Virus record (IMG/VR): IMGVR_UViG_3300044648_000427
Reading direction: 5' to 3' (one strand)
Length of the DNA stretch: 64,000 nucleotides
Origin: a virus
Every line of letters begins with the position of its first letter. Position 1 is the stretch's first letter. Shown in pieces: positions 1,238 to 59,216 of the stretch. The position numbers and the translations under genes are program-made. The notes below the pieces were generated by a model. It worked only from the letters and a program-made list of their open reading frames with translations, was not told the DNA's origin and made no database searches.

Positions 1238-1841
1238 GTGTGAACACCAAATGTGCTGTTAGAGATCCTGTAGTTCCAGTTCCAGAAGTTTGTTGTAACG
1301 TAAGGCCATCAAGTCCGCCCGGTCGTAATTGTATTGCAGAACCATTTCTTGAACCTGAGAATATTACATATACTCCTGCTGTGTTAACTGAAAAGGTAGC
1401 TCCTCCAAGTATATAAGGGGTTACTGGAGCAGGTGTTTGAAATATACTTACTGTGGCTCCAGTTTTTACGAGTACATCATTTGGGATTGCTGTGTTATTT
1501 GGATAATCAGCGGCATATTTCAATATTGAAAGATCTGTTCCTCCAGTTGGAACGGTATTAATATATCCTAATTGTAATGTTACTACATGGTTAGCTAAAG
1601 TCCTTGGATAAACATATACTTCTTGAATTCTAATTCTCTTTGTTGCTAATCTATTGAAAATAGAAATAATATTTTTATTTAGTGCAGGAGCAACGTTATC
1701 GGCTACTGCTTGATATGTAGGGATATCCGCTGTTAACGTTTCTTGAACATTAATCGATGTACCTGAGAAATCAGGATGTTGATTAGTTTCAAAAACGACA
1801 AGTTTCTTACCGTCTGGTAAATCTATGACACTTTCGGGCAT
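1230..1841 (-). CDS. Putative virion structural protein
   Basis: Thr/Gly/Val-rich, beta-type sequence; preceded by the TAGTT motif at -36. Confidence 0.6.
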   Translation of the reverse strand: MPESVIDLPDGKKLVVFETNQHPDFSGTSINVQETLTADIPTYQAVADNVAPALNKNIISIFNRLATKRIRIQEVYVYPRTLANHVVTLQLGYINTVPTGGTDLSILKYAADYPNNTAIPNDVLVKTGATVSIFQTPAPVTPYILGGATFSVNTAGVYVIFSGSRNGSAIQLRPGGLDGLTLQQTSGTGTTGSLTAHLVFTLD

Positions 1842-1894
1842 ACAAAAAAATATAGAGTGACGAATTAAAGATAACTATGAAAAATTAGGGATTA

Positions 1895-2953
1895 TTAGAA
1901 AACTATCTCTTTCCAATTAGGATCTGTTTTAGTTTTAATCCATTCTTTACGTTTTATACCTCTGCTATACCAAACGATTATTACTTTGTTATAGCCGTTC
2001 ATGTTTTCGTATGAACGCATTTTTATTTTTGCGTCACTTTCTAGTATTTTCTTTTCAATTTCAATTGCTACAAGTTGATTATTTTCAGCATAAATAATAT
2101 CTGGAACCGGTTTACGAGTTATAACGTAACTTTCTAGTCCTCTTTCATGTGCGTCACTGATTACTATATCCCAATCACATTTTACCGGAATTCCTCTTTT
2201 TGATTGACTTATTTTGAGTCTTGTTTCTTCGGATCTTGGTATCCCTATATGTGGTTTGGATTTTCCTGTAAGAGATTCACTTATTTTCATTTTTACATCT
2301 TCTGGGGTTTCTTTACCTATTCTAGATTCATGGTAACATTCTTGTGAACAATACATACCATCTCCATATTCTTTGACACGTCTATTGTATATCCACCTTA
2401 ATTGTTGAAATTTCTTTTTACATTTTTCATTTTTACAAATTAATACAACTATGGGTGGGTCATGTCCTTGTTCTTGGTATAATCTTTTTCTTGTTTCACT
2501 TATTTTCTTTTTATGTTCTTCTGATAATGTTTTATTTTTTCTCCCACGTTGAGGACAAGATTTATCTATTTGTGAGTTACCTATTTTTTCTTTTCTCTCC
2601 TCAGTAAATTTTACTCCAGTTAAACTACATTTAATTGAACAAAAAATTTCTTTTCGTTTATTTCTATTTATTCTATGGTTATATTCCCATTGTTTCATTG
2701 TAAGTGGTTTATTGCATTGTGAACATTCAACTGTAATGGTTGGTGATAAATTACGTGTACCTTCATTATATGATTTTTTTAATGCAGTAGTTAATTTATT
2801 TCGTGTTTCTTGTGTTGGTTTTTTACCTAATTGGCCACATTCTTTTGAACAAAAAATTCCTCTTCCATTGTTTCGTTTTAAACGGTAGTTATACCACCAT
2901 TCATTGATTATTATATCTTTAGAACATGTTGTACATTTTACATTAATTTCCAT
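1895..2953 (-). CDS. Putative homing endonuclease: Zn-finger/NUMOD3 repeats plus C-terminal PD-(D/E)xK nuclease
   Basis: Three CxxC...(F/Y)CSxxC units, NUMOD3-like SEEHKKKIS and SEETRLKIS motifs, C-terminal PDII...AIEIEK. Confidence 0.75.
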   Translation of the reverse strand: MEINVKCTTCSKDIIINEWWYNYRLKRNNGRGIFCSKECGQLGKKPTQETRNKLTTALKKSYNEGTRNLSPTITVECSQCNKPLTMKQWEYNHRINRNKRKEIFCSIKCSLTGVKFTEERKEKIGNSQIDKSCPQRGRKNKTLSEEHKKKISETRKRLYQEQGHDPPIVVLICKNEKCKKKFQQLRWIYNRRVKEYGDGMYCSQECYHESRIGKETPEDVKMKISESLTGKSKPHIGIPRSEETRLKISQSKRGIPVKCDWDIVISDAHERGLESYVITRKPVPDIIYAENNQLVAIEIEKKILESDAKIKMRSYENMNGYNKVIIVWYSRGIKRKEWIKTKTDPNWKEIVF

Positions 2954-3040
2954 AAAAAATATATAGGGGGAGCAGTATATAAAGATTACTGCTATTAGAA
3001 TGTGTTTTGGGTTATTAACCTAATGTTAAAGTTCAGGTAT

Positions 3041-3514
3041 TTATCCCAAAGTCAAAGTCCACGACACCTGAAGTGTATCATTTGTTGCAAGCGTGACGGG
3101 TGTGAACGTATTTTCATGCGTCATTGTTCCAGCACTTGATGCGTTGAACAATGCAGCTTTTTGAACAGCAGTATGAGTACCTGATGCGGTAAATGTGATT
3201 GCTAATGTTGTAGTATTTGTACCTGCACTGTGAGTTCTTGTTGTAGCTTGTGCACGACCTAAACCGTTAGTTGTAATTTCAGAGGTCAGTGTTGTATCTC
3301 CTGCCGCTGGTGAACCAGTATCGGTTGTAACAGCTATATAATTTCCGCCTATTGTTCCTGCCGATGTGTTAGTATAAACTTGAGCATGGAAAAAGTCTCT
3401 TCCACCGTTAGTCAATAAGTTTGGTTTATTTTTGACAATTGTTTCCCACTTGTCAGAATTTGCTCTTTTAACTAAAACGGTTAAATATCCATGAATATTT
3501 GCATCTGGGTACAT
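3041..3514 (-). CDS. Minor tail/baseplate-associated structural protein
   Basis: NLLTNGGRD...YIAV..D...DTTLTSEI...GLGRA motif typical of tail-associated proteins; likely start MYPDAN at 3514; related to 17282..17998. Confidence 0.65.
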   Translation of the reverse strand: MYPDANIHGYLTVLVKRANSDKWETIVKNKPNLLTNGGRDFFHAQVYTNTSAGTIGGNYIAVTTDTGSPAAGDTTLTSEITTNGLGRAQATTRTHSAGTNTTTLAITFTASGTHTAVQKAALFNASSAGTMTHENTFTPVTLATNDTLQVSWTLTLG

Positions 3515-3515
3515 C

Positions 3516-3734
3516 TTAGCTGATCTCCCCCTTGCATTCTTCACAAATCGGTGATTTTCCAAATGGCAAATTATCAAAGGTTACTTCCTTTTTGCACATG
3601 GCACATGGTTTTGCACCAACTTCAACTATTCCTGTTTCTTTGGCATGTTTTTCCCATTCTTCGGGATCTGTAGTTTCAAAGGAGTATTCTTCTCTATAAT
3701 CAATGAATTTTCCTCCACCTTCTATAAACGACAT
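3516..3734 (-). CDS. Small Zn-finger protein
   Basis: CAMC...CEEC; TAGTT motif at -36. Confidence 0.6.
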   Translation of the reverse strand: MSFIEGGGKFIDYREEYSFETTDPEEWEKHAKETGIVEVGAKPCAMCKKEVTFDNLPFGKSPICEECKGEIS

Positions 3735-3816
3735 ATGAGTGTAGATAGAAGTTCTAATTAATGATAACTATGAGAAAAAATGTAAAGTTTATAAATGATA
3801 AAACTAACTTTAATTA

Positions 3817-4323
3817 ATGCCTAAAGGAAAGCCGGATCTATATAAAAGACAATTTAAAGGTAAATTTAGAAAATGTAAATGTGGATGTGGTGAAATAATT
3901 CCATATTTAAATAGTGCTAATAGGTTTATCAAATATAAATTAAGTCATAATTTAAAAAAATTTCATTTTAAAGGGGGTCAAGATAGTCCAAGATGGAAAG
4001 GTGGTAAAATTACTATGCCTGATGGTTATGTTAGAATATTAGTTCCAAATAATTATTATACAGATCATTCTAGTAGATTCATTTATAAAAGTGGTTATAT
4101 GATGGAACATCGTTTAGTGTGGGAACAATATCATAATGTTTGTTTACTTTCGTGGGCTCATGTTCATCATAAGAATGGTATTAAATATGATAATAAAATT
4201 GAAAATTTAGAAGCGATGATGGAAGGAAAACATGCTATCATCCATTTAATAGAAAATAATTTTCATATTGGAAAGAGAGATTATTCTAAATCTAAGAAGG
4301 CATTACGAATTTCGTTAAAATGA
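3817..4323 (+). CDS. HNH homing endonuclease
   Basis: CxCGCG N-terminus, WKGG..DGY, EHRLVWE, VHHKNG.K.DN..ENL; own TATA box (TTTATAAA near 3788); opposite strand to neighbours. Confidence 0.9.
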   Translation: MPKGKPDLYKRQFKGKFRKCKCGCGEIIPYLNSANRFIKYKLSHNLKKFHFKGGQDSPRWKGGKITMPDGYVRILVPNNYYTDHSSRFIYKSGYMMEHRLVWEQYHNVCLLSWAHVHHKNGIKYDNKIENLEAMMEGKHAIIHLIENNFHIGKRDYSKSKKALRISLK

Positions 4324-4783
4324 CTTGTATTGTCATCATTGAATGAAATATAGTACTTGTATTATCCTCTTCATCGATTCGCCTAAAATTAATTGGAACA
4401 ATAAGTGATATACCAAAAGCCGGAAAACCTCCAACTGATGTAGCGATTATTCTTGATACTTCTTTGTTAAGATTTGTCATGGTTTGAGGATATTGTTCGC
4501 TTAATTCCCTACAGAAAGTATGAATTTCTATAAATAATGAATGATCCCATACTTTATTACCCAGAGCTGCTGATCCCATAATATCTGCATTAAGTAGCAC
4601 GGATATTACATAATCATGTCCATTATCATACCAATCAGTGTTAAAGTGTACATTCTTGAATTCATTTGGATCATCTATAGGAGGATTATTTATCGCCCAA
4701 GAAGATTTAAGTTTATCAATAATTATTTTAAGTACTTGATTATTAGAAATGTTAGGTTTATTACCCCCTAAAACTATAGGCAT
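4292..4783 (-). CDS. Putative tail terminator/tail completion protein
   Basis: Size, position near the tail tube gene, alpha/beta pattern ending FHSMMTIQV; TACTT motif at -35. Confidence 0.5.
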   Translation of the reverse strand: MPIVLGGNKPNISNNQVLKIIIDKLKSSWAINNPPIDDPNEFKNVHFNTDWYDNGHDYVISVLLNADIMGSAALGNKVWDHSLFIEIHTFCRELSEQYPQTMTNLNKEVSRIIATSVGGFPAFGISLIVPINFRRIDEEDNTSTIFHSMMTIQVILTKFVMPS

Positions 4784-4805
4784 AGAAAAACAAACTTATC
4801 GTTGT

Positions 4806-5459
4806 CTAATAGGAAGTATTTTCAAACTTTAGTAAAAAATTATTGTGAGCGTTTCTTATTATCCAATTTTCTTCTGTACAAAGATTTCTATTATGCATAA
4901 TTTTTATTCCTGAAACTGTAATATGGAAAGAATCTGGAGCAAATATACCTATTTGATTTGTTTGTGTTTTTTTTATTGGAATAGCATGTTTATTTTGGTA
5001 ATATGTAAATTCCCATGGATTATGATAAACTAAAGGAAAATCTACATATGCTTCGGGGGAATCATCTCGTTGGAGTTTAAGTTTATAGAGATTTTTGTGT
5101 TTGAAATCATAACTCTTTATTCTTTCATATGAAAGCAGAAATTTTTCCCAATCTCCTTCAATATATTCATCTGAATCAATAATGATTAAGTTATCTGTTT
5201 TGCAAAGGTTTTTAACTAACTTACGTTTGTCTACTTCATAATCATTGGGTCTATCAATAATTTTGACTTTATCAAAGTTTTGTAGATATTCTCTGCTACC
5301 GTCAGTTGAAAGTTGATTAAATTCTGTTCCCATTTTATGTTTTCCGTCAACTGCGATTACTTCATCTACATAGTCTATATATGTAGGTAGACTACGTTGT
5401 AAATTCCTCAAACAATTAAAGAACAATAATTCTACTGTGAATCCGCTCTTTTTTGCCAT
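4806..5459 (-). CDS. Glycosyltransferase family 2-like protein
   Basis: VDEVIAVDG, STDGS, IIDSDE (DxD) motifs. Confidence 0.8.
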   Translation of the reverse strand: MAKKSGFTVELLFFNCLRNLQRSLPTYIDYVDEVIAVDGKHKMGTEFNQLSTDGSREYLQNFDKVKIIDRPNDYEVDKRKLVKNLCKTDNLIIIDSDEYIEGDWEKFLLSYERIKSYDFKHKNLYKLKLQRDDSPEAYVDFPLVYHNPWEFTYYQNKHAIPIKKTQTNQIGIFAPDSFHITVSGIKIMHNRNLCTEENWIIRNAHNNFLLKFENTSY

Positions 5460-5710
5460 TCTAAAAGATAGTTTTTCACATCTTCAAATGTATTAAATTC
5501 TTTATGATCTTCAAACCTTAGATAGTAATTATTTAGAATTTTACTGACAGTTACACGATATTTAGTTAAAGATTGATCAAATAGTCTACGATCTTCAACT
5601 GCAAATATACTAGCAAGTTCAACTGATAACCTTGATTCAACATTAATTACATACTTCTCATTATTGATAGAAAATGTAATTTGATATGTAGGGTTAAGTA
5701 TTTCTTTCAA
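5432..5710 (-). CDS. Hypothetical protein
   Basis: ORF track. Confidence 0.5.
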   Translation of the reverse strand: MKEILNPTYQITFSINNEKYVINVESRLSVELASIFAVEDRRLFDQSLTKYRVTVSKILNNYYLRFEDHKEFNTFEDVKNYLLEWQKRADSQ

Positions 5711-5755
5711 TATTTATAATACTTCTCTTTTTTACGAACTTATAAAGTTTTCTGT

Positions 5756-6658
5756 ATGGTAGAATATATTCCAACAGGCTCGTGGGAATACGTAAAACAA
5801 CCTCAATTCGTTGAGGAAGTCGTATACGGAACGTTGCCTCTCGCTAATACAACTTTTACATCTTGTGGACTTATCACAGAGGTTACTCGTGAGTTCACTA
5901 TAGAAAACGAACAATATAGAATTCTTGGTTCAAGGGATATTCATACACAGATTAAATTGGGAGAACAGCACACTTTTTCATTTAAATACCGACCACAAAA
6001 CATGGTACTTGCAAAGTATGGAACTGATTTGCCTGTAGGAACAGGAACAAATGCTAAGAGTATCAGTATTCTTGTCTCAAAAAATGTTGATGGAGTAGAG
6101 AAATTCAAAGTCTTTACTGGTGTAAAAACCGCATCAATTACAATTGAAATTACAAGAGCTTCTGGTGTTAATGTTACTCAAAACTTCAAGTGTAAGAATA
6201 TTACTGAATGGGGAACTGCTCCTGTATTTACAGGAACTACAACTTATGCAACATTAAGTGCCGCTGATCCATGGACTGGAATTTCATCCGGTGTAGATCC
6301 ATTGACTATTGATGCTGTTGCTTATGATACACCAAGATTCAGTGTTACTGTTGATCAAGGTTTACAAGAACTGAAACCAAATGGCCAATTAACACTTAAA
6401 TACTTGTTCGCAACCAACAGAACAATTACAGTTGACTTTGATACATGGGTTAAAGATACAGTATTGAATGCTGCACAGGCTGCTTATACAGCTCAGGCCG
6501 CAGAGTACATGTTGAATAACAGTACGCAAGATACTAAGCTGGTCTTTACATCACTCAAGTTCGACTCAGCTTCTGAAGGTGATACTGCTGGTGGAGCCGA
6601 ATTTACAATGGCTAAATTCAGTGGTACAGCAAAAACAATGACGATAACAGTCGTCTAA
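5756..6658 (+). CDS. Major tail tube protein
   Basis: 300-aa Thr-rich two-lobe beta protein with N-terminal E...YGT.P motif, upstream of the chaperones and tape measure; followed by an oligo-T terminator. Confidence 0.75.
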   Translation: MVEYIPTGSWEYVKQPQFVEEVVYGTLPLANTTFTSCGLITEVTREFTIENEQYRILGSRDIHTQIKLGEQHTFSFKYRPQNMVLAKYGTDLPVGTGTNAKSISILVSKNVDGVEKFKVFTGVKTASITIEITRASGVNVTQNFKCKNITEWGTAPVFTGTTTYATLSAADPWTGISSGVDPLTIDAVAYDTPRFSVTVDQGLQELKPNGQLTLKYLFATNRTITVDFDTWVKDTVLNAAQAAYTAQAAEYMLNNSTQDTKLVFTSLKFDSASEGDTAGGAEFTMAKFSGTAKTMTITVV

Positions 6659-6709
6659 ACTCATTTTTTTTCGAAACTTTTATATTACTGATTAACTATT
6701 AATTACTTA

Positions 6710-7342
6710 ATGAATAAAAATATTTCATTAGCTTTATTGCTCCTAGCTCTTATGCTAACAGCAACGGCTTCACTTAATATAAACGTTTCTGCTGAAGAAG
6801 GCGGAGATGGTGGCGATTCTGGAGGAGACTCTGGAGGCGATAGCGGAGGGGATTCCGGCGGCGATAGCGGCGATAGTGGCGATAGCGGTGGAGACTCAGG
6901 AGGCGATGACGGTGGAGATTCCGGCGACAGCGGCGATGACGGTGGAGATGATAGCGGATCAGACGATGGAGGAGATACGGATACAGGCGGAAATGACGAT
7001 GGAACGGATGGCGGAACTGGAGGAAACGACGATGGAACTGGTACGGACGATGGTACAGGCGGAAATGACGATGACAACGATGGAGACGGTGATGGCCGAG
7101 ATAACGATGATGATGATGATAGAGATGATAAAGACAAAAATAAAAAAGTTATAATCAAAAAGAAGACAGTATATAGAGATGACGATGATGACGATGATGA
7201 TGACAACAAAAACTATTATTACTATCAACCACCAAATTATGCACAGGGCGAAAATAGCGAAATCTATAAATTCTGTGTATTACTCAAATCAAGTGGAGAT
7301 CTAAATAAAGACTTTAATTGTCTGCAATTTCTCCCACCTTAA
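6710..7342 (+). CDS. Secreted Gly/Asp-rich low-complexity protein (moron)
   Basis: Signal peptide, GGDS and GGNDDGT repeats, poly-Asp; own BRE-TATA (CGAAACTTTTATA) and oligo-T terminator. Confidence 0.75.
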   Translation: MNKNISLALLLLALMLTATASLNINVSAEEGGDGGDSGGDSGGDSGGDSGGDSGDSGDSGGDSGGDDGGDSGDSGDDGGDDSGSDDGGDTDTGGNDDGTDGGTGGNDDGTGTDDGTGGNDDDNDGDGDGRDNDDDDDRDDKDKNKKVIIKKKTVYRDDDDDDDDDNKNYYYYQPPNYAQGENSEIYKFCVLLKSSGDLNKDFNCLQFLPP

Positions 7343-7349
7343 TTTTTTT

Positions 7350-7739
7350 TTAACAAGTTTTAAAATTTATAGGTTGACCTTCTACTAGTCCGCATATTTT
7401 ACATACTATATGATATTTTGCATAACCATAATATCCACTATCATAATATTCATTATGCGGTTTACCATGTTCACACCAATTTCCATATATACAATGTGGC
7501 CCTTGTCCTGTTTGAGTTTTTTCCCATTCATGAGGACAGTTAGCATAAACTAGTAATGTAGCTTTATTCTTAATTCTACATATTTTTTCATGATATTCAC
7601 GATTAGTTGATTCTAGATCAGATATTTGTTGTGTTAATACACCTATTTCAGAAATATTAATTTTGATCTTACTCTCTAATTCTTTAATGTATTGTATGTC
7701 TTCATATGCAAGAAATTTATTTAATTGCTCATCTTTCAT
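7350..7739 (-). CDS. Hypothetical protein (coiled coil plus CxH...CxxC Zn site)
   Basis: ORF track; motifs read by eye. Confidence 0.6.
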   Translation of the reverse strand: MKDEQLNKFLAYEDIQYIKELESKIKINISEIGVLTQQISDLESTNREYHEKICRIKNKATLLVYANCPHEWEKTQTGQGPHCIYGNWCEHGKPHNEYYDSGYYGYAKYHIVCKICGLVEGQPINFKTC

Positions 7740-7786
7740 TGATTTTTATACTTCTTTTCTGTTTATAACCTTTTCCCCCTTTATAT

Positions 7787-8254
7787 ATGTCTGAAGAGGA
7801 AAAAACTCCTATAGAAGAAGCAGCCGTAGATTATACAAAACACTACCGAAAATATTATGAAGAATTAGCTGGAGTAAGAATGAAAGAAGTTACTAAATTA
7901 GCTAAAGAAGATCAATTTAATATTGATATCTTTGATGAAAAATCCGGTGAGTGGACAAGTAAACCTTTTAAATATAGAGAAATTCCAACAAAGAAATGGA
8001 TGGAATTAGAAGAATTACGTTCTCGTTATACTGATCTAGAAAAAGTTGCCGCAACAAAATTATTGGTTGCGAAAGATCAAAATACATATGATTATGCTCA
8101 ACAGTTAAATAAATTATTAAGTGAATTATATCAAAAAAGTGCTAAATACTTTTTAGGCATGGAAGAATACGAATTTGATAATTCCAAATGGACTCAAGTA
8201 AAAAGTATTATAGACGCTTGTAACCATAGAACAATCTTTACCCTCCCAAACTAA
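7787..8254 (+). CDS. Tail assembly chaperone (gpG-like)
   Basis: Position between tail tube and tape measure genes; ends in the slippery heptamer C CCA AAC just before TAA. Confidence 0.75.
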   Translation: MSEEEKTPIEEAAVDYTKHYRKYYEELAGVRMKEVTKLAKEDQFNIDIFDEKSGEWTSKPFKYREIPTKKWMELEELRSRYTDLEKVAATKLLVAKDQNTYDYAQQLNKLLSELYQKSAKYFLGMEEYEFDNSKWTQVKSIIDACNHRTIFTLPN

Positions 8255-8529
8255 GTCAGCAAATCCGCCAGTACTTCTTATCCGAAGGTGGGGTAAGAGC
8301 TGAGGATTTGAATGCTAAAGAAAAACTTTTCCTAAAGATTTGGGAAAGATTTCAAGTATGTAAAATGTTACCTCATGAATGGCTTACTGATGGTGAAGTT
8401 ATCGAGGAACATATGAATGGACTTGTTGAAATGCATAAATTACATAACAAGAAATTACAGATGGAAGCTGATCTTGCACAAAAGAAATCTGCGTCAAGAG
8501 GTGGAACATCCGTTCAAAGAGGATTTTAG
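8245..8529 (+). CDS. Tail assembly chaperone frameshift extension (gpT-like), reached by -1 frameshift
   Basis: The -1 frame from 8245 (CCC AAA CTA AGT...) is open and in frame with ORF 8308..8529. Confidence 0.7.
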   Translation, partial: PKLSQQIRQYFLSEGGVRAEDLNAKEKLFLKIWERFQVCKMLPHEWLTDGEVIEEHMNGLVEMHKLHNKKLQMEADLAQKKSASRGGTSVQRGF

Positions 8530-8561
8530 TTCACAAAAAGGACATTTACGTTACATTTTTT

Positions 8562-9125: not shown

Positions 9126-9187
9126 TCTTATATAAACTTTTCCTTACATAGTTATCTTATTCTAATCCATTAAATTTCTTTACATCT

Positions 9188-15487: not shown

Positions 15488-15527
15488 CCTTTTACTTCTC
15501 TTTTGTTGAGTATATGTTTTTTCCTTT

Positions 15528-18839: not shown

Positions 18840-18888
18840 TTACTCTTTTTTAACAACATTTATATTTAAGCATTCCTATAATTTCTTT

Positions 18889-18996: not shown

Positions 18997-19030
18997 AAAC
19001 CTTTATATTTAGCTATACCTATTATTCCTT

Positions 19031-19198: not shown

Positions 19199-19238
19199 AT
19201 AAGAAAGACTTATATTATACAACTCTTATTTATATTTT

Positions 19239-19810: not shown

Positions 19811-19848
19811 TAGTTGATTTATTTAAACACTAATTTATAAACGTTGTT

Positions 19849-19980
19849 ATGAGTTTTAAATATTTTCGCCCTGCTATACGAGGTCATGGCCCAAATTGTA
19901 AATGCAGTTTAGATTTTGGTGGGTGCGTTATAAAGAAACTTATTGAAAAACTAGAAAGGTTTGAGGAGCAAAATAAATGA
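19849..19980 (+). CDS. 43-aa micro-protein resembling the N-terminus of the downstream fibre
   Basis: TAGTT at -38; ATGA overlap with 19977. Confidence 0.55.
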   Translation: MSFKYFRPAIRGHGPNCKCSLDFGGCVIKKLIEKLERFEEQNK

Positions 19981-30769: not shown

Positions 30770-30864
30770 AAGATCTGAGCTTAGATTTTGGTATTTATGA
30801 CAACTAAGTTTACCTTATTTCAGTTTCAATAGTTGTTTTGTTTGATTTATTTAAAAGTTTTCAT

Positions 30865-37256: not shown

Positions 37257-37688
37257 ATGAAACTAGCTATAATAATTGTCATTTTAAGTTTTCTTATAGG
37301 TGGTGCTTATATAGGACACGCCAATTATGTTCTTGAAAAATCACATATCCCAATAGATGAAGAAAAATATATATATTATCATATTCAAACTGAGTATATT
37401 AAATTTATGATATTCTTACCTGTTGCCATATTTTATTTTATGATTGCTATTGTTATTTTTTGTATTCCTCATAATCCTCTTCCTTATGTAATATTTATAG
37501 GATTTACGGGAGCGTTCCTAGCAATAACAGCAATAAATATGTTTTTAGGTAATCCTTATCCACAGTTAAACATGACAACTAAATATGGACATTACATTGA
37601 TTTTCCTCTAGTAAAAACTTTTCAGACTATATCTATGATTGTAACTTTATATGTATATTACAAAAAGTTCTGTTCTAAAGTTGTATAG
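37257..37688 (+). CDS. Membrane protein (about 4 TM segments)
   Basis: Hydrophobic segments. Confidence 0.6.
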   Translation: MKLAIIIVILSFLIGGAYIGHANYVLEKSHIPIDEEKYIYYHIQTEYIKFMIFLPVAIFYFMIAIVIFCIPHNPLPYVIFIGFTGAFLAITAINMFLGNPYPQLNMTTKYGHYIDFPLVKTFQTISMIVTLYVYYKKFCSKVV

Positions 37689-37728
37689 TTCTCAATAAGA
37701 AATAATTAATATCATTTTTCACACATAA

Positions 37729-39812: not shown

Positions 39813-39859
39813 TAAAATTATATAAAATTATTATAATAAAAGTGTTTTTAAAAAAAAAA

Positions 39860-40288: not shown

Positions 40289-40505
40289 TGTAAGGTAAGT
40301 AATATATTCACTAGTATAAAAGCTTTACTAAAAAATTAATTTGGATAAGATTTTAACTCATCCTGAATTATTGATATAAGTTCAAGACCGTTTCTACGTG
40401 CTTTCTCATAATCTTGTTCTTCATATGCACTATAGATCATATTTTGCACAATCTGACACATTTTGAGCGAGATAAGCTCTAATGGATCATCGGTAGAACT
40501 AAGTT

Positions 40506-40811: not shown

Positions 40812-40881
40812 ATTTTAAGAATTGATTTTCTTGTTAATAAAAACTATAAGTTTATATTCGTGTTGATCCATTATATAATTA

Positions 40882-43685: not shown

Positions 43686-43718
43686 CATTTATATTACCGA
43701 CTGATCAATATAATACTG

Positions 43719-45605: not shown

Positions 45606-46399
45606 AAGTGTTATTAAAGTTGGAGGAAATCTTTCAAAAGAGGAGCTTGAGAAATTAGTGGAACAATTAAATATGGGTCATTGGATAGCAACAGATAAGA
45701 ATGTTATTTGGGAAGTAATAGAAGATGAATAAGAGTCTTAAAAAAGAGATATATAATCGGTTAACTTTTTTTAGTGAGCAAAGAGATAAGTGGGAATACG
45801 ATAAATGTACAAAAGATATTTTAAATATAATTAAAAAAAGAATAGAATATGAAATAGATCATACTAGTTTAGGTGATTGTCCAGAATGTTTTGGTGATGG
45901 TTTAAAAAGATTTGGAGAGATGTTAGATGAATCTTAGAGAAGAAATTATTTCATCCTTACAAGATAGTAAATGGTTCATTGCGGGCGGATCATGGGATCA
46001 ACCAGCAGATGATATATTGGAAATATTCGAAAAAAGAATAGATGAACATATTAAAAAGATTGATAGTAAAAGATGTTGCCGATTAGATAATAAACATGCT
46101 GATATCATTGAAGAGTTTAGAGATTTTAAGGAGATGTTAAGTTAATGTCTTATTATTTCGAACCAGAAGAAATACAAAAGGTACTCAATAAATTCAGAGA
46201 AGTATTTGAATACACTGTAAACTTAAATCGTCCCTCCATTACCGTAAAGACTCATAGTAGACTCGCTATTGATATAATGGAAGCAATTAAAACAGATACA
46301 CCATTTTATATTAGTTTTGTTTATGCAAGAGCATCAGAAACACTAGAAATTCTATGTGATCTTGATCATGAAAAGTGGAAAAATGACCAAAAAACTTAA
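45598..46399 (+). CDS. Coupled small ORFs 45598..45732, 45725..45937, 45927..46145, 46145..46399
   Basis: Start/stop overlaps; 45725 and 45927 are paralogues. Confidence 0.6.
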
Positions 46400-46424
46400 A
46401 TATAAATAGTTTAAATAACTATTA

Positions 46425-46892: not shown

Positions 46893-48206
46893 ATGAATAA
46901 TAGAAAAATAAAAATTTGTTGTAAAGGAATGAATCATTTAATTAAAGAAGCGATGCTTGGATTTGATTATTATTCTGATAGTGATAGATTTTGTCTAATA
47001 GAACATAATGCAGCAGATGACGGTGATGGATATATCGATACATGGGAAAATTATGATATTGAAGTAAATTTTTGTCCTATTTGTGGGAAACAAGTTGAAA
47101 AGGAGAAATATAATGAATCTTAGAGAAGAAATCAATCAAGTTCTAACTACTGTAAAAGAGCATGCTTATTTAACTGGAATAACAAAACCTAGAGATTCAG
47201 AGATTGCAAGTATATTTATGGTTATTGAAAAACGAATAGATTCAATCATGCAGAGAGAAATATCCGATTCACACCATTTCGAGATACAACAAGCCAAAAA
47301 TGATGTATCGACTATTGATGCAATAGTTAGAATATGTAGGGAGATTAAGGATGAATTGCGGATATTGTAAAGATAAAATAAATTTAGCCCTTAATGGATT
47401 TTCTGGTATAAAGGAAAAATTCTGTCAGACTTGCTGGAGTAAAATTTATTCTGTATATAAGGGTAATAGAATAGCGAAAGAAGAGCCTGAGATATTAAAT
47501 TGGGTGGTAAAGATAAAAAATGAATAAATCTCAACAAATAACAATCCATTGTGAGGAATGTTCTAGGGATGCAACTGTAACAATAACATATTTGATGAAT
47601 TTAGGTAGATCTGGATGGAATGAATTACTATGTCCATCATGTTTTGCTTTTAAAATGATGACTGAATTACTAACGGAGAAAGAAAAATGAAATGTTGTGA
47701 TTGGTGTTATGAGGATTCCAATGTATTAATTGAAGTACTTAATCAAAAATATTGGGGGCCGAATAATGATTATAAAGAATCATATGAAAAAACAGAATTA
47801 GTTTGTACTAGATGTTTAGTTAAAGATGGGATGAATAATTTATGAAATCTGTTAATGAAATAAATCAAAAAATTGAAGAATTAAGGAAGGAATATCGTGA
47901 AATTGATAATAAATTTCCTTTCATTGAAGAAGATCAAAACAGTTTTTTAATTAACGAACTTCTTTCGGGTATAGCACAACAAATTAGGATTTTACAATGG
48001 GTTATAGAAGAAAAATGATTTTACCTCCCATTTGTAAACATCAACTATATTGTGCAAATAATCATAAATATATGGATTGTCCTCAAAAAGGTTGTATTTG
48101 GGGTCATTGTGAAACTTGCGGTGTATGTTATAACCCGTTATTTGATTGTTCTAAATTACTTGATGAAGAGCTTCCTGAGAGTTTAAAGATGGAAAAGCTT
48201 AAATAA
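46893..48206 (+). CDS. Chain of translationally coupled micro-ORFs: 46893..47123, 47113..47370, 47351..47527, 47520..47690, 47687..47845, 47842..48018, 48015..48206
   Basis: Translated by hand; ATGA overlaps; most carry two CxxC pairs. Confidence 0.6.
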
Positions 48207-50514: not shown

Positions 50515-50557
50515 AAAAAACAAAGTTTTTAAGTAGGGGCAACCCTAATGCATACAG

Positions 50558-53500: not shown

Positions 53501-54265
53501 ACAGGTTCAATATCTATGATTGCTGATTGTTCAAGTGGGATTGAACCAGTATTCGCTTTGGCGTTTGAGAAAAAGGTTGCGGTAGGAAACTTTTATTATG
53601 TAAATCCATATTTGGAACTTTATCTTAAAAAGCATAATATTTTTTATGATGAAGAATTACTTAAAACTATTTCTAAATCAGGTTCATGTCAAAATGTAGA
53701 TTTACCTGAAGAGGTTAAACGTATTTTTGTAACTTCAATGGATATTCATGGACTTGATCATGTAGTAGCTCAAGCAGTTTGGCAACGATGGATGACAAAT
53801 GCAGTTTCAAAAACTTGTAATTTGCCTAATAATGTAACTCCTGAAGATATTGAAAATATCTATTTATTTGCTCATGAAATGGGATTGAAGGGAATCACTA
53901 TTTACCGTGATGGTAGTAGAAATACACAAGTTCTTTATACTGAAAATATGGAGAATAAACAATTAAATGCTACAGAATATTCAAGAAATCTTTATCAACA
54001 AAAGATGATTAAAGGATTAGACGGAATGATTATGAAGGCACAAATGATAAATAAAGAAGTAACTCCTACAGTTGAAGAATTTTTTACACAAAATAAGGAA
54101 TTCAATCCAAACAATCATTCTGAATATGGTGAATCTGAACTAGAACCTTTACCCCGTTACAAAACTAGTAACATAGCAGATTGTCCTAAATGTGGTAAAC
54201 GAATGGTTAAATTTGATGGATGCAAAAAATGTCCAGATCCTTCATGCGGGGAATCACTTTGTTAG
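50558..54265 (+). CDS. nrdJ: Class II (adenosylcobalamin-dependent) ribonucleotide reductase with ATP cone, intein and C-terminal Zn ribbon
   Basis: ATP cone VKKRNG..V.F...KI; PNTPT..NAG; SACF; TNPCGE; CNLGSINL; APTGSIS; YRDGSR. Confidence 0.95.
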   Translation: MIKVKKRNGSIVDFNKDKIVSAVNKALKAAKIEDSKIAKDVAISIYESIDKEQVSIDEIHGMVETELMEKGFSDAARSYILYRYKKKEKFIKERQEKRKLLNIEGQLDPVSEKFSLNSLRVLESRYLIKDENLKVIETPTALFERIATHVGCANIMYDEKVFDREAKHEPNTGTISGLLTWNNDYYIRTPEEYEKSDLHIGKYRLNGYNLKQLEQLYGKLSNENKMKVSFDEVLRMVAEGEFDKYEKTIKSYFDLMVSQKFMPNTPTIANAGNKLGQLSACFVIDMNDNIESIMDTAKDMAIIFKSGGGVGINYAKLREEGATISTTSGTSSGPLSFMNIINTVTDTVKQGGKRRGANMGSMNSSHPDILKFIHAKETPGILENFNVSVGIDGKFWECYKENKPYELISPSSGKVKATVNPRDFMKEISRSAWNSSEPGVLLFDNANKYNVMKGLKGELNSTNPCGEQYLYPYESCIAKNTRILTKDGYKFIQDIKPGEEIAINKNGYASFSTVNTIINNGIKNIYEITTHEGYTVKATNNHKFLTKSGEWVRLDELAEETELTISAKEPYCSIQTNTDNYKEDEMIGWIHGDGWFTDKVVGISFNGKDGDFDVKRRLLPVFHKVFKTEHIRPMYDSPDNFQLQTESSGAKQILVGLGVKFGRAGQRRIPDYIWETDSVRQIAFLRGLFSADGSIQNRSNTAVQLASTSKEFLLDVQLLLLRFGLHSTIYTTEFKTTKRNPQHKLALTQENARRFMDSIGFLSERKNSMFNRNPPKYYNSDKKTVRIKSIVECGKEEVYDIEVANEHQFIANGFVVHNCNLGSINLTKFVKNKLFDFDSFGQVIDICVDFLDSVIDVNKYPVNEIDKESWKTRRIGLGVMGLGDLLFMLEIPYNSVESYALQEQIAQFLSYRSISRSIKLAKLRGSFPYFEQTECKHGKVDIAGVWEGGITSKAPVADWQEVKDDIQKYGLRNVNVDMVAPTGSISMIADCSSGIEPVFALAFEKKVAVGNFYYVNPYLELYLKKHNIFYDEELLKTISKSGSCQNVDLPEEVKRIFVTSMDIHGLDHVVAQAVWQRWMTNAVSKTCNLPNNVTPEDIENIYLFAHEMGLKGITIYRDGSRNTQVLYTENMENKQLNATEYSRNLYQQKMIKGLDGMIMKAQMINKEVTPTVEEFFTQNKEFNPNNHSEYGESELEPLPRYKTSNIADCPKCGKRMVKFDGCKKCPDPSCGESLC
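51983..53011 (+). mobile_element. Intein (343 aa) with LAGLIDADG endonuclease in NrdJ
   Basis: YES|CIAKNT...T.NHKF...IGWIHGDG...FLRGLFSADG...VYDIEV..H.F.ANGFVVHN|CNLGS. Confidence 0.95.
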
Positions 54266-54581: not shown

Positions 54582-54619
54582 CAAAAACATTTATATATTT
54601 ATTTATTCTATATATTATA

Positions 54620-55128: not shown

Positions 55129-55184
55129 AGTTGTTTAAACATCCTTTATAAAGGTTTTTAAATTTACAACTGCAATTACCATTT

Positions 55185-57330: not shown

Positions 57331-57645
57331 TCTCTTTATTCTATCTACTCTAAATTCCTCACATGAATTATAATTAAATGAAATATATTCTAAAATTTGA
57401 ATAATAATTTTACAATATAATCGTAAATTTTCGCCCTTATTTAACTTACCTTTAAGGTATTTTCTTATGACGCTTGGAAACGTTGTTCGGTAATATTTTT
57501 TCAGGTCTATTTCAGGATCAAGGTAACTGGAATCGATATATGATGAGAATTTTTTTGTGAACGCTACTGGATTACCATGGTGATCTAGAATAAGTATGTC
57601 TAATTCTTCCATTCTATTCAATACTTCAGGAGCTACCACTTGCAC
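57319..57645 (-). CDS. Hypothetical protein
   Basis: ORF track; TAGTT at -34. Confidence 0.55.
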   Translation of the reverse strand: MQVVAPEVLNRMEELDILILDHHGNPVAFTKKFSSYIDSSYLDPEIDLKKYYRTTFPSVIRKYLKGKLNKGENLRLYCKIIIQILEYISFNYNSCEEFRVDRIKRLNL

Positions 57646-57702
57646 AAGTAGAATAGAAAGTTAGAGTTTATGTAAACTACCAGAAGAGTTAAATACTTTT
57701 AC

Positions 57703-58938
57703 TTGTATTTATTCGTTATGACAAAATTAAGTCCACAAGAATTAGCTATAATTAAGGAAGCTGGGGATTCTTATATAAGTCCAAGCCGATATAAAATGGC
57801 TGTTGTAAATGGAATAAGGCAAAAACTTGAAGAAGAAGATCCAGACTTTACCAATGCAGAAATGTCACAAATGTTCGAATTTCTTGCATCTTATGCTACC
57901 GATAAACACGAAAGATTAATGGTTGATTCCTTAAGAGAAAAACTAAAAAGATTTAAATTTCCTCCAGATGGTGTTGAACGATAAGTTTATTAGTTGTTTA
58001 TCGTAATAAATCAGATATGTTTGATAGGTTGTTATATCTGAACGATAGTTATCCCCCAAAAAGCCAGTTTGTTGTAAGCAATTGTGTAAATATCATCAGT
58101 GAGATTTACAAAGAATTAAGAAAAAAATACAGGATTCCTCAATATGTAGACAATTACAATAGTTTTGAATCATATTTAAAAGAAAATGATATAGAAGAAA
58201 TTTACATAAAGGATTTACCGGATATATGTAAAGCTATACTTGGATATACGGTAGATAACGGGCTAAAATTACCAAATTATTTGCAACGTAGAGTACGTAA
58301 ACTTCAAGACTTTTTTGATATAACTGAAGGAAGAAATTAATCTCCCTTCATGGTAAAGCTTAAATAGTAGTATTTCACTATTACTATTGGTAAAGTTTAT
58401 TGGTAAATATCAAGGATGTAAGAACTAAAGTAGATCAAGGTAAATACTTGAGTCTAAAAGAAAAAAGAGAATATCTCAGATGGTGTATAAATCAAGAAGT
58501 TGATAACAAGCAAATTATTGATCAATTTAGTAAGTATGATTTAAATATTTCACAGTTCGTTTTTATGCTGAATGATCTAAGGGCAAATTTACGGTCTAAT
58601 TGACTCATATAATTGATGAATATAAACAAAGATTTCTTCAAAATACTAATCTTTTTATAAAGCGTTTTCATATAGAAAATGATATAGAATTTGATAATGT
58701 TATTCCTAATGGGGCTACTATGCCTTCTCATACTGAAATGAGAGATCAAGTTATATTGAATGTAGAACTTGAAGCAAGAGATGGAAGTCGTCCACTGTAT
58801 GGTGAACTTGGAGATGAGACTTTTAGACTTCACCAAATGCAAACTCATATTGAACCTTTATACCCTTATGAATTAGATAGAAATAGAATAAATAATGTGC
58901 ATACTTTTAGGTTAAAATATTTTATAGTTAAAAATTAA
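57703..58938 (+). CDS. Hypothetical ORFs 57703..57984, 58017..58340, 58400..58603, 58600..58938
   Basis: ORF track; TATA boxes upstream of most. Confidence 0.55.
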
Positions 58939-58944
58939 AAAAAA

Positions 58945-59148
58945 TTATTTTTGCTTTCGGGCTTTTCTCATCACAACTTCATCCCCTCGCATTTCAAATA
59001 TTACTGAATCTGGATAATTCCAGTTTTCAATTATATCTTTTGGGATATAGGCTTGTGTGCCTCTTGTTGGATGATGGGTTACACTAGATTTAAATTTTCT
59101 TGTACCCTCAGCATATTTTTTACCATTAAAAACTAAATAATCGGTCAT
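58945..59148 (-). CDS. AbrB/SpoVT-like DNA-binding protein
   Basis: GTQAYIPKDI....PDSVIFEMRGDEVVMRK; TACTT at -35 from ATG 59148. Confidence 0.7.
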   Translation of the reverse strand: MTDYLVFNGKKYAEGTRKFKSSVTHHPTRGTQAYIPKDIIENWNYPDSVIFEMRGDEVVMRKARKQK

Positions 59149-59216
59149 AAAGAAGAAATGCAATCTGTGATATTTGGGAAGTAATGTTTAAATAGAAGAG
59201 AGTTTAATATTATTTA

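What the first reader, a model, noticed from the sequence alone, without database searches (positions are those of the whole stretch)
1841..59183. A second promoter class: a TA[G/C]TT box at the BRE position in front of nearly all virion genes
Seen: TAGTT or TACTT, usually followed by (A/C)TC and an AT run, starts a near-fixed distance before the start codon of genes at 1841 (-36), 3734 (-36), 4783 (-35), tail tube 5756 (-36), chaperone 7787 (-38), gp10-like 8562 (-35), tape measure 9188 (-39), hub 15528 (-35), 19849 (-38), 22464 (-36), 24399 (-38), 30769 (-37), 30865 (-35), 31100 (-37), 40811 (-35), HNH 49307 (-37), 57645 (-34) and AbrB 59148 (-35). Examples: TAGTTATCTTTAATT, TAGTTATCATTAATT, TACTTCTCTTTTTTA, TAGTTCTCTTTTTTA. 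Replication, moron and endonuclease genes (3817, 6710, 19239, 40882, 43719, 50558, 54620, 60261) instead have canonical purine-rich BRE plus TTTATA/TTTAAATA. Established: on leaderless archaeal mRNAs the BRE sits near -33 to -38, and Nitrososphaerota carry several TFB paralogues. Inference: a late regulon read by a viral or alternative host TFB or activator, a sigma-switch equivalent in an archaeal virus. It would also explain why the structural genes are individually promoted and lie on both strands.
Basis: partly seen in the sequence, partly recalled or inferred. Interest (0 to 1): 0.82.

Follow-up and report, generated by a model that had tools for sequence, protein, structure and literature searches.

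The report
Virion-gene promoter box, thaumarchaeal virus
A large soil virus of ammonia-oxidising archaea puts a conserved non-TATA signal, TA(G/C)TT(C/A)TC, about 36 bases before nearly every tail and appendage gene block, while its other genes use ordinary archaeal promoters; this points to a separate, still uncharacterised switch for making virus particles.

Summary
Confirmed. All 18 listed TA(G/C)TT boxes exist at the stated distances. In my own gene set, 13 boxes fall at -39..-34 against 1.6 expected (P about 2e-8; shuffles reach 6 at most). A matrix trained only on relatives re-finds ten window sites 35-43 nt before start codons.

The box is the 5' end of an asymmetric element of about 12 nt that fills both the BRE and the TATA position. 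It has no recognisable TATA box. A T-rich spacer with a pyrimidine at -1 follows, and the start codons lack a Shine-Dalgarno sequence (leaderless type). It heads 14-15 transcription units of the tail/appendage module. Homing endonucleases, RNR, helicase and small genes use an A-rich BRE plus TTTAWATA at -30.

Three sites outside the module are weak, and 19849 is a hybrid. The same element (TAGTTCTCTTTT) precedes the portal, capsid and tail genes of Nitrososphaera provirus Pro-Nvie1 (53% GC) and genes of metagenomic relatives. It is therefore a conserved virion-gene promoter of this lineage.

Untested: what reads it (host TFB paralogue or viral factor) and whether it is 'late'. No RNA data exist, and the window has no TFB or TBP gene.

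This scan noted the motif before on other DNA (Pro-Nvie1-type proviruses). I found no publication of it.

The parts
1866..1877 (-). Class-2 box TAGTTATCTTTA, 36 nt before ATG 1841 (203-aa protein, then 96-aa and >313-aa genes)
   Evidence: 11.4 bits; same box in ortholog L016 2217
3759..3770 (-). Class-2 box TAGTTATCATTA, 36 nt before ATG 3734 (72-aa Zn-ribbon protein, then SD-led tail-fibre-like gene)
   Evidence: 9.6 bits; divergent from HNH gene 3817; conserved in L016 3037
4807..4818 (-). Class-2 box TACTTCCTATTA, 35 nt before ATG 4783 (163 aa, weak homolog of Pro-Nvie1 gene 16)
   Evidence: 6.7 bits
5720..5731 (+). Class-2 box TACTTCTCTTTT, 36 nt before ATG 5756 (tail tube protein)
   Evidence: 13.1 bits; box kept before tube orthologs in relatives
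7749..7760 (+). Class-2 box TACTTCTTTTCT, 38 nt before ATG 7787 (homolog of Pro-Nvie1 gene 18, chaperone position)
   Evidence: 12.5 bits; conserved in L015 1408 and L016 6270
8527..8538 (+). Class-2 box TAGTTCACAAAA, 35 nt before ATG 8562 (tail completion / gp10-like); its TAG is the stop codon of ORF 8308-8529
   Evidence: 6.1 bits
9149..9160 (+). Class-2 box TAGTTATCTTAT, 39 nt before ATG 9188 (2099-aa tape measure protein)
   Evidence: 8.0 bits; same box before L015 4803
15493..15504 (+). Class-2 box TACTTCTCTTTT, 35 nt before GTG 15528 (baseplate/hub homolog of Pro-Nvie1 gene 23)
   Evidence: 11.9 bits
19811..19822 (+). Ambiguous or hybrid site: TAGTTGATTTAT, 38 nt before ATG 19849 (43-aa Cys-rich micro-ORF coupled by ATGA to the 816-aa LamG fibre gene); followed by a strong TATA box
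   Evidence: TATA 6.4 bits; 5.0 bits
22428..22439 (+). Class-2 box TAGTTATTAAAT, 36 nt before ATG 22464 (323 aa, then three SD-led or overlapping genes)
   Evidence: 8.3 bits
24361..24372 (+). Class-2 box TAGTTCATTAAA, 38 nt before ATG 24399 (1626-aa appendage protein with metallophosphatase domain)
   Evidence: (7.2 bits)
30795..30806 (-). Class-2 box TAGTTGTCATAA, 37 nt before ATG 30769 (497-aa protein)
   Evidence: 7.0 bits; divergent pair with 30830
30830..30841 (+). Class-2 box TAGTTGTTTTGT, 35 nt before ATG 30865 (62-aa Zn-ribbon protein)
   Evidence: 9.2 bits
31063..31074 (+). Class-2 box TAGTTCTCTTTT (identical to the Pro-Nvie1 consensus), 37 nt before ATG 31100 (PKD protein, then 258-aa and 1549-aa genes)
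   Evidence: 17.6 bits, best in window
37686..37697 (+).
   Evidence: 10.5 bits
40835..40846 (-). Weak site TAGTTTTTATTA, 35 nt before ATG 40811 (101 aa); may be chance
   Evidence: 2.9 bits
49270..49281 (+). Weak site TAGTTTTTTTAA, 37 nt before TTG 49307 (HNH protein); its TAG is the stop of 48994-49272
   Evidence: 4.7 bits
57668..57679 (-). Weak site TAGTTTACATAA, 34 nt before GTG 57645 (108 aa); may be chance
   Evidence: 4.0 bits
59172..59183 (-). Class-2-like box TACTTCCCAAAT, 35 nt before ATG 59148 (67-aa protein, AbrB label unverified)
   Evidence: (8.3 bits)
2976..2983 (-). Class-1 TATA box TTTATATA, -30 of ATG 2953 (NUMOD3 homing endonuclease)
3788..3795 (+). Class-1 TATA box TTTATAAA, -29 of ATG 3817 (HNH endonuclease)
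6679..6686 (+). Class-1 TATA box TTTATATT, -31 of ATG 6710 (secreted acidic repeat protein)
7762..7769 (-). Class-1 TATA box GTTATAAA, -30 of ATG 7739 (129-aa coiled-coil/Cys-His protein)
18863..18870 (-). Class-1 TATA box CTTAAATA, -31 of TTG 18839 (LAGLIDADG endonuclease)
19002..19009 (+). Class-1 TATA box, -29 of ATG 19031
19209..19216 (+). Class-1 TATA box, -30 of ATG 19239
19834..19841 (-). Class-1 TATA box, -31 of ATG 19810
39833..39840 (-). Class-1 TATA box, -28 of ATG 39812 (weak, sub-threshold Metallophos match)
40313..40320 (-). Class-1 TATA box, -32 of ATG 40288
40851..40858 (+). Class-1 TATA box, -31 of ATG 40882 (operon up to 629-aa gene)
43688..43695 (+). Class-1 TATA box with TTACCGACTGA extension, -31 of ATG 43719 (helicase)
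46395..46402 (+). Class-1 TATA box, -30 of ATG 46425 (SNase-like nuclease)
48198..48205 (+). Class-1 TATA box, -30 of GTG 48228
50528..50535 (+). Class-1 TATA box TTTAAGTA, -30 of ATG 50558 (ribonucleotide reductase with intein)
54590..54597 (+). Class-1 TATA box, -30 of ATG 54620
55157..55164 (+). Class-1 TATA box, -28 of ATG 55185
57986..57993 (+). Class-1 TATA box, -31 of ATG 58017
60230..60237 (+). Class-1 TATA box, -31 of ATG 60261 (winged-helix candidate regulator)

Best explanation
The TA(G/C)TT box is the upstream end of a conserved, asymmetric, non-TATA core promoter of about 12 nt. Its window consensus is wTA(G/C)TT(C/A)T(C/T)(T/A)T; the consensus in Pro-Nvie1 is TAGTTCTCTTTT. It drives the virion (tail, baseplate, appendage) genes of a lineage of tailed viruses of Nitrososphaerales; in relatives it also drives head genes.

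The element occupies -36..-25 from the start codon. That is the space where this genome's ordinary promoters have an A-rich BRE and TTTAWATA. Transcription should therefore start at or within a few bases of the ATG and give leaderless first cistrons. Following cistrons are translated through GGAGG-type Shine-Dalgarno sites or overlapping stop/start codons.

The element is sequence-specific, one-directional and lacks a TATA box, and the hosts have only one TBP. I therefore infer that the standard TBP/TFB pair does not recognise it alone, and that a specificity factor is needed. My odds for that factor:
- about 35%: one of the host's 5-11 TFB paralogues;
- about 35%: a virus-encoded factor not visible in this window;
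- about 15%: the housekeeping factors acting on a deliberately weak promoter that fires once genome copies are many;
- about 15%: something else.

Shown: the motif, its position, orientation, gene-class bias, lack of TATA and of SD, and its conservation across relatives.
For: Position and statistics:
- 13 sites at -39..-34 against 1.6 expected; shuffles reach 6 at most.
- Mirrored and reversed words give 1-2.
- A matrix built only from 19 sites in relatives finds 20 window hits of 9 bits or more. Nine of them lie 35-38 nt, and one 43 nt, before an ORF start.

A promoter is needed at these places:
- At least six of the sites lie in divergent intergenic regions (3734, 5756, 7787, 30769, 30865, 40811; searches place 19849 and 57645 in the same arrangement). 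No upstream transcript can exist there, and TATA scores are low (0.7-5.1 bits against a class-1 median of 7.3).

Leaderless geometry:
- No SD-like word in 18 class-2 and 19 class-1 upstreams, against 14 of 28 for internal cistrons (P 2e-4).
- A pyrimidine sits at -1 in 17 of 18 class-2 sites.

Gene class:
- Fisher P 4e-4 by homology label and 1e-3 by region.
- P 1e-5 when the 10 kb beyond the window is added, where 0 of 27 genes carry the box.

Conservation:
- Pro-Nvie1 (tube protein 40% identical, 53% GC) has TAGTTCT 34-38 nt before 8 of 30 annotated genes, including portal, capsid and major tail. It has 16 plus-strand TA(G/A)TTCT copies, all inside the provirus.
- L002, L004, L005, L015 and L016 keep the box before orthologous genes while the flanks diverge.

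Host factors:
- AOA have 5-11 TFBs and one TBP.
- The window and Pro-Nvie1 share only tail genes, which argues against a shared viral regulator within what is visible.
Against: - No transcript 5' ends or expression data exist for this DNA.
- No factor is identified.
- Motif-like words are not more numerous in the window than in shuffles; only their position is special.
- Two more distant complete relatives (G001, G002; tube protein 35% identical) show no enrichment of TASTTCTC, so the element is not universal in the wider group.
- In L007 the box lies 43-57 nt from the called starts, so leaderless geometry is not kept everywhere.
- Three or four of the listed sites are weak.
- In Pro-Nvie1 the TAG or TAA of the box is often the stop codon of the preceding gene and is followed by a T run. 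A termination role cannot be excluded there.
Confidence: 0.75

Rival explanations
1. Operator model. The box is the binding site of a conventional virus-encoded regulator, such as the winged-helix protein 60261-60884 or the small protein 58945-59148. The site lies over a weak but ordinary TBP/TFB promoter. The regulator activates, or until late represses, the virion genes.
For: - The window encodes a probable winged-helix protein behind a canonical promoter. Its fold hits are ArsR/MarR/PadR regulators and SSV1 F-93 / STIV F93.
- Archaeal viruses commonly regulate with such proteins (my own knowledge).
- The T/A-rich stretch after the box could serve as a poor TATA box. Class-2 TATA scores exceed random genome positions (P 2e-4).
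Against: - The box has no dyad or direct-repeat symmetry, whereas dimeric wHTH, RHH and AbrB proteins usually bind symmetric sites.
- It sits at one fixed position, as a core element does.
- Class-2 TATA scores are no better than their own shuffled composition (P 0.15).
- The 60261 protein has no homolog in Pro-Nvie1 or in the available parts of other box-bearing relatives.
- The fold model has low confidence (pLDDT 57).
Confidence: 0.15
2. Gene-junction model. The element acts mainly at the end of the upstream gene or on RNA. It would combine a stop codon with a U-run terminator, or be a processing site, separating monocistronic messages. It would not be a start signal.
For: - In Pro-Nvie1 the TAG or TAA of the box is the stop codon of the preceding gene in at least 7 junctions, and T runs of 4-7 follow.
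- In the window this holds at 8527, 37686 and 49270.
- Oligo-T tracts terminate archaeal RNA polymerase (my own knowledge).
Against: - Several window sites lie in divergent intergenic regions with no co-directional upstream gene.
- Five sites are TACTT, which cannot be a stop codon.
- Only 4 of 19 sites have five or more T in a row.
- The distance is fixed to the downstream start codon, not to the upstream stop. Gaps to the upstream gene end range from 0 to over 300 nt.
Confidence: 0.05
3. No function. The pattern is chance in AT-rich DNA, or a repeated intergenic segment copied around the genome.
For: - TA[GC]TT is a short word with 457 copies on both strands of the window.
- About two hits are expected in the -39..-34 slot by chance.
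- The total count of matrix hits is not above shuffles.
Against: - Positional excess is eightfold (P 2e-8).
- The pattern is strand-specific.
- Flanks of the sites are not alike.
- The same element occurs in a 53% GC provirus and in several relatives in front of orthologous genes.
Confidence: 0.02

Closest known systems
Archaeal BRE/TATA core promoters that give leaderless mRNAs (Sulfolobus/SSV1 T6, Haloferax and others; my own knowledge). This genome's class-1 promoters are of this kind.
   Same: Same place relative to the start codon (-36..-24), one orientation, no Shine-Dalgarno sequence on the first cistron, SD on internal cistrons.
   Different: Sequence: pyrimidine-rich TA(G/C)TTCTCTTTT in place of a purine-rich BRE plus TTTAWATA. 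No TATA box is detectable above composition. The -12..-1 region is T-rich with a pyrimidine at -1.
TAGTTCTCTTTT element of Nitrososphaera provirus Pro-Nvie1 (FR725450.1). It is noted earlier in this scan (e1-2601581, e1-2601368). I found it in no paper.
   Same: Same core word, same 34-38 nt distance to start codons, same restriction to head and tail genes, homologous tail genes.
   Different: The window's version is looser (G or C at position 3, C or A at position 6, A/T-rich tail). It rarely doubles as the upstream stop codon. It coexists with a large set of canonical promoters in a genome of more than 170 kb.
Phage late promoters read by a replacement specificity factor (T4 TATAAATA with gp55/gp33; the SPO1 sigma cascade; my own knowledge)
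   Same: A distinct core-promoter sequence reserved for virion genes beside host-type promoters for other genes.
   Different: A bacterial sigma system rather than archaeal TBP/TFB. Here no factor and no timing have been shown.
Regulons specific to general-factor paralogues in archaea: Halobacterium TbpD/TfbA (PMC2121645, as cited in PMC12448741), and the change of dominant TFB in Nitrosopumilus maritimus biofilms (PMC12448741)
   Same: Hosts of this virus group have 5-11 TFBs that could give promoter classes.
   Different: No TFB paralogue has a defined, sequence-distinct BRE in this phylum, and none is linked to a virus. AOA have a single TBP.
Winged-helix regulators of archaeal viruses (SSV1 F-93, STIV F93)
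   Same: The central domain of 60261-60884 gives these among its fold hits.
   Different: Weak match (E 4e-3, pLDDT 57). No link to the box. No homolog in Pro-Nvie1.

Membership tests
Archaeal BRE/TATA core promoter | Element at a fixed place about 24-38 nt upstream of the transcription start (here taken as the leaderless start codon) | tested here: met
   TA[GC]TT starts at -34..-39. The class-1 BRE lies at -37..-32 and its TATA box at -28..-32 in the same genome. The TSS itself is not mapped.
Archaeal BRE/TATA core promoter | TATA box (TTTAWATA-like) centred near -26 | tested here: not met
   Best TATA score in -36..-16: class-2 median 2.5 bits, class-1 7.3 bits (leave-one-out). Class 2 is not above shuffles of its own composition (P 0.15). 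Pro-Nvie1 has CTCTTTT at that place.
Archaeal BRE/TATA core promoter | Purine-rich BRE directly upstream of the TATA box | tested here: not met
   Class 1 has 54% A at -40..-31. Class 2 has TA(G/C)TT there, with 46% T.
Archaeal BRE/TATA core promoter | Strand-specific orientation with the gene | tested here: met
   13 forward words against 1 reverse-complement and 2 reversed words in the same slot.
Archaeal BRE/TATA core promoter | Binding by TBP/TFB and initiation by RNA polymerase | not testable with these tools
   Needs EMSA, in vitro transcription or TSS mapping. No RNA run holds this DNA.
Viral late (temporal) promoter class with dedicated factor | Restricted to one functional gene class and distinct from the genome's other promoters | tested here: met
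   Fisher P 4e-4 (homology labels) and 1e-3 to 1e-5 (regions).
Viral late (temporal) promoter class with dedicated factor | Expressed later than the other class | not testable with these tools
   No RNA holders. The virus is uncultured.
Viral late (temporal) promoter class with dedicated factor | A specificity factor encoded by virus or host that recognises the element | tested here: inconclusive
   No TFIIB or TBP family hit in any window protein of 150 aa or more, nor in G001-G003. The rest of this genome (over 100 kb) and the host genomes could not be searched.
TAGTTCTCTTTT box of Nitrososphaera proviruses | Core word TA(G/A)TTCT 34-38 nt before start codons of virion genes | tested here: met
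   A matrix from relatives scores 14 window sites at 6-17.6 bits. 31063 is identical to the consensus.
Intrinsic terminator / gene-junction signal | Follows the stop codon of a co-directional gene and carries a run of five or more T | tested here: not met
   3 of 19 sites overlap a stop codon and 4 of 19 have T5 or longer. Several sites lie in divergent intergenic regions.

The most novel reading that the evidence does not exclude
Tailed viruses of soil ammonia-oxidising archaea switch on particle genes through a TATA-less core promoter read by a dedicated general-factor variant. That variant would be either one of the host's many TFB paralogues captured by the virus lineage, or a so far unrecognised viral TFB-like or TBP-replacing protein. 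This would be the archaeal counterpart of the phage late-sigma switch. It would also give the first defined DNA specificity for a TFB paralogue in this phylum.
Probability: 0.3. Interest if true: 0.8.

Novelty: new variant of a known kind. Interest (0 to 1): 0.6.

Why it matters
Temporal gene control in archaeal viruses is poorly understood, and so is the purpose of the 5-11 TFB paralogues of ammonia-oxidising archaea. This finding supplies a sharply defined DNA element of about 12 nt. It is conserved from 33% to 53% GC genomes and separates particle genes from all other genes in one genome.

One carrier, Pro-Nvie1, sits in a cultivable host (Nitrososphaera viennensis). The question 'which factor reads a non-TATA archaeal promoter' therefore becomes directly testable with purified factors and existing RNA-seq.

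The element is also practical. It marks virion modules and true start codons in uncultured thaumarchaeal virus genomes, where homology searches mostly fail.

Tried and rejected
- No whole genome is held for the window, so the remaining 100+ kb of the virus could not be scanned for TFB, TBP or TFE.
- No RNA holder is listed for window 1-10000 (20 DNA runs from soil). TSS and timing could not be examined, and read laying was not used.
- Host use of the box could not be tested. The one genome-contig scan returned a probably mis-binned contig in a 'Parafilimonas' MAG and a weak Chloroflexia hit. L002 lies in no held genome.
- A single-protein scan of viral contigs found nothing. The alignment scan found three distant relatives, which lack both the regulon in strict form and TFIIB/TBP genes.
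- Literature searches for the motif string, Pro-Nvie1, and thaumarchaeal virus promoters found no description of the element.
- The 'hidden TATA box just upstream of the box, with the box as a downstream element' idea is rejected. The 8 nt upstream of the sites share nothing, and in Pro-Nvie1 they are GC-rich coding sequence.
- The 'artefact of stop codons at a fixed spacer length' idea is rejected. Five sites are TACTT, only three overlap a stop codon, and the TTCTC part is conserved.
- Orphan matrix hits (5652, 54886, 38686 and others) have no ORF 25-60 nt downstream and are within the chance expectation.
- The AbrB label of 58945-59148 could not be checked: Pfam gives nothing at E 0.05 or below, and the single-sequence model has pLDDT 48.
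- The Atlas search on the 60261 protein gave only weak leads.
- Look-ups of earlier findings by 'host chromosome' and by relatives gave nothing useful.

Full report
WHAT THE WINDOW IS

The window is 33% GC. It carries a tail module with these genes:
- a tube protein (Pfam Phage_tube_2);
- a tail-completion protein (phrog_5);
- a 2099-aa tape measure protein;
- a baseplate protein and fibre-like proteins.

Giant appendage proteins with PKD, LamG and metallophosphatase domains follow. After them come nucleotide-metabolism and replication genes: a helicase, an intein-containing ribonucleotide reductase, dUTPase, nucleases and a ParB-like protein.

The tube protein is 40% identical to the major tail protein of Nitrososphaera provirus Pro-Nvie1 (FR725450.1). 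Six tail genes are shared with that provirus in the same order. Notes from other windows of the same genome place further findings up to about 97 kb beyond the window's end. The genome is thus larger than 170 kb, and only about a third of it is visible here.

THE OBSERVATION

To avoid choosing starts to fit the motif, I called 78 genes mechanically: longest ORFs ranked by codon score.
- Of the 76 starts with a full 80-nt upstream region, 13 have TA[GC]TT starting at -39..-34. The background is about 0.3 per position.
- The expectation from the genome-wide word frequency is 1.6 (P 2e-8). One thousand dinucleotide shuffles of the upstream regions give a mean of 1.96 and a maximum of 6.
- The reverse complement, the reversed word and neighbouring words give 1-4 in the same slot.
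- A blind scan of all 4- to 6-mers for positional clustering returns three signals only: TTTAT(A) near -30, GGAG/GAGG near -15, and TAGTT/TACTTC near -37.

ANATOMY

Aligned on the box, the window sites read wTA(G/C)TT(C/A)T(C/T)(T/A)T followed by A/T-rich sequence.

Nineteen other promoters form the contrast class. Each has an 8-mer of the TTTAWATA type starting at -28..-32, with 54% A at -40..-31.

The conserved element does not stop there, however. It continues through the TATA position. Class-2 promoters score a median of 2.5 bits for a TATA box, against 7.3 bits for class 1. That is no better than shuffles of their own composition (P 0.15).

Class 2 also differs downstream. Positions -12..-1 are 52% T and 22% A, against 41% and 43% in class 1. 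The base at -1 is a pyrimidine in 17 of 18 class-2 sites, against 6 of 19 in class 1 (P 1e-4).

Neither class has a Shine-Dalgarno word at -20..-3 (0 of 18 and 0 of 19). Fourteen of 28 internal cistrons have one (P 2e-4). Both classes thus look like promoters of leaderless first cistrons.

WHY IT IS A PROMOTER AND NOT SOMETHING ELSE

Many class-2 sites lie in short divergent intergenic regions: 3734/3817, 5710/5756, 7739/7787, 30769/30865 and 40811/40882. No upstream transcript can supply these genes, and no canonical TATA box is present for them.

I tested four alternative readings.
- Hidden upstream TATA box. The 8 nt before the box share nothing, and in the 53% GC relative they are coding sequence.
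- By-product of stop codons. Five sites are TACTT, and only three overlap a stop codon.
- Terminator. Only four sites have five or more T in a row, and the distance is fixed to the downstream start, not to the upstream stop.
- Plain word excess. Motif-like words are not more numerous than in shuffles (20 against 31 +/- 6). The signal is entirely one of position, and the ten hits outside promoters are within chance.

GENE-CLASS BIAS

The box heads the transcription units of these genes:
- the tube protein, the protein at the chaperone position, the tail-completion protein and the tape measure protein;
- the baseplate protein, the LamG fibre gene (through a 43-aa micro-ORF) and the block starting at 22464;
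- the 1626-aa appendage protein, the 497-aa protein, the PKD block that includes the 1549-aa protein, and the operon with the fibre-like gene at 3041-3577;
- several small proteins.

Inside the same region, the genes with canonical promoters are three homing endonucleases (NUMOD3 at 2953, HNH at 3817, LAGLIDADG at 18839), a secreted acidic repeat protein (6710) and small ORFs.

The statistics are as follows.
- By homology label: 8 virion genes are class 2 and 0 class 1; enzyme and endonuclease genes are 1 and 8 (P 4e-4).
- By region: 15 of 38 genes left of 37.9 kb against 4 of 48 right of it (P 1e-3).
- With the next 10 kb of the genome added (L012, 0 of 27 genes): P 1e-5.

Of the four sites outside the module, three are weak by the relatives' matrix: 40811 (2.9 bits), 49307 (4.7) and 57645 (4.0). 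They may include the roughly two hits expected by chance. The fourth, 59148, scores 8.3. Site 19849 is a hybrid with a strong TATA box.

CONSERVATION

Pro-Nvie1 is 53% GC. It has TAGTTCT 34-38 nt before 8 of its 30 annotated genes, where about 0.2 are expected. These include the portal, the protease/capsid gene and the major tail gene. Variants (TAATTCTCT, cAGTTCTCT) precede four more genes. Sixteen TA(G/A)TTCT copies lie on the coding strand, all inside the provirus.

Metagenomic relatives with tube proteins 37-95% identical (L002, L004, L005, L015, L016) keep the box at the same distance before orthologs of the tube, chaperone, tape measure, 1841, 3734 and 4783 genes. The surrounding intergenic sequence diverges.

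A matrix built from 19 sites of these relatives alone, without any window site, gives the window's best hit at 31063 (17.6 bits). It places 10 of its 20 hits 35-43 nt before ORF starts.

The element has limits.
- In L007 the box lies 43-57 nt from the called starts.
- Two complete or near-complete IMG/VR genomes with tube proteins 35% identical show no excess of TASTTCTC.

WHO READS IT

This is the open part.
- No window protein of 150 aa or more matches the TFIIB or TBP families, and none matched any other transcription-factor family at the thresholds used.
- The distant relatives G001-G003 have no TFIIB or TBP genes either.
Its best matches are ArsR/MarR/PadR regulators and SSV1 F-93 / STIV F93. 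It has no homolog in Pro-Nvie1, and such dimeric proteins usually bind symmetric sites, which the box is not.
- The window and Pro-Nvie1 share the element, but in the visible parts they share only tail genes. That makes a conserved host factor somewhat more economical.
- Ammonia-oxidising archaea carry 5 (N. viennensis) to 11 TFB paralogues but a single TBP (PMC12448741, PMC4084955).
- Against this, a viral factor in the unseen two thirds of the genome cannot be excluded. Whether host genes use the box could not be tested here.

I therefore commit to 'non-canonical core promoter of virion genes that needs a specificity factor' at 0.75.

KNOWN OR NEW

Promoter classes specific to a virus and leaderless archaeal promoters are both known kinds. 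A TATA-less, pyrimidine-rich element at the BRE/TATA position, reserved for particle genes and conserved across a virus lineage, is a new variant.

I found no paper describing it. This scan had already noted the same word in Pro-Nvie1-type proviruses (e1-2601368, e1-2601581), in another AOA virus (e1-3309797) and elsewhere in this genome (e1-5611562, e1-5611576). I reached the Pro-Nvie1 result independently before reading those notes.

What this window adds:
- the side-by-side contrast with about 20 canonical promoters in one genome;
- the demonstration that class 2 lacks a TATA box;
- the distinct -1 and -12..-1 context;
- the grading of the sites.

Noticed in passing
L012:1-10000 (the 10 kb beyond the window's end); window 43688-43710 and 6679-6700: At least ten small-gene promoters share an extended canonical form, TTTATATTACCnACTnA. 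This may be a third (early?) promoter sub-class with a conserved element just downstream of the TATA box.
   Followed up: partly
window 1895-2953 (-), 3817-4323 (+), 18006-18839 (-), 50558-54265 (+): Three free-standing homing endonuclease genes (NUMOD3, HNH, LAGLIDADG) are inserted in the tail module, each with its own canonical TATA promoter. A LAGLIDADG intein also sits inside the ribonucleotide reductase gene.
   Followed up: partly
window 6710-7342 (+): A 210-aa protein with a signal-peptide-like N-terminus and long (G-G-D-S)n and poly-D tracts lies between the tube and chaperone genes. It is expressed from a class-1 promoter, so it looks like a moron gene.
   Followed up: no
window 19849-19980 (+): A 43-aa Cys-rich micro-ORF ends in ATGA, overlapping the start of the 816-aa LamG fibre gene, which has a GAGGAG Shine-Dalgarno site. 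This looks like translational coupling from a leaderless micro-cistron.
   Followed up: partly
window 37257-37911 (+): Two small membrane proteins (143 aa; 60 aa with two TM helices) lie directly after the appendage genes. The second has a class-2 box at -43. They are possible lysis or holin genes.
   Followed up: no
window 24399-29279, 32557-37206, 38937-39812: Calcineurin-like metallophosphatase domains occur in two giant appendage proteins. A separate 291-aa protein gives only a weak, sub-threshold match to the same family.
   Followed up: no
L001 (Pro-Nvie1) 7402, 10812, 15667: Extra TAGTTCTC copies occur here: one inside the protease/capsid gene, and two just after or before annotated starts. 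They suggest an internal promoter and mis-annotated start codons for genes 16 and 23.
   Followed up: no
window 5460-5755: The spacer between the tube gene and the conserved divergent 217-aa gene is about 230 nt longer than in relatives. It holds a second TACTTCTC copy (5652, + strand) and a 92-aa ORF without any methionine.
   Followed up: partly
L002 9900-10010: In the 221-kb relative the tube gene has no clean start codon. Similarity begins at 9968, after an in-frame stop, and the TACTTCTTATC box lies about 68 nt upstream. This could be an assembly error or an unusual start.
   Followed up: no
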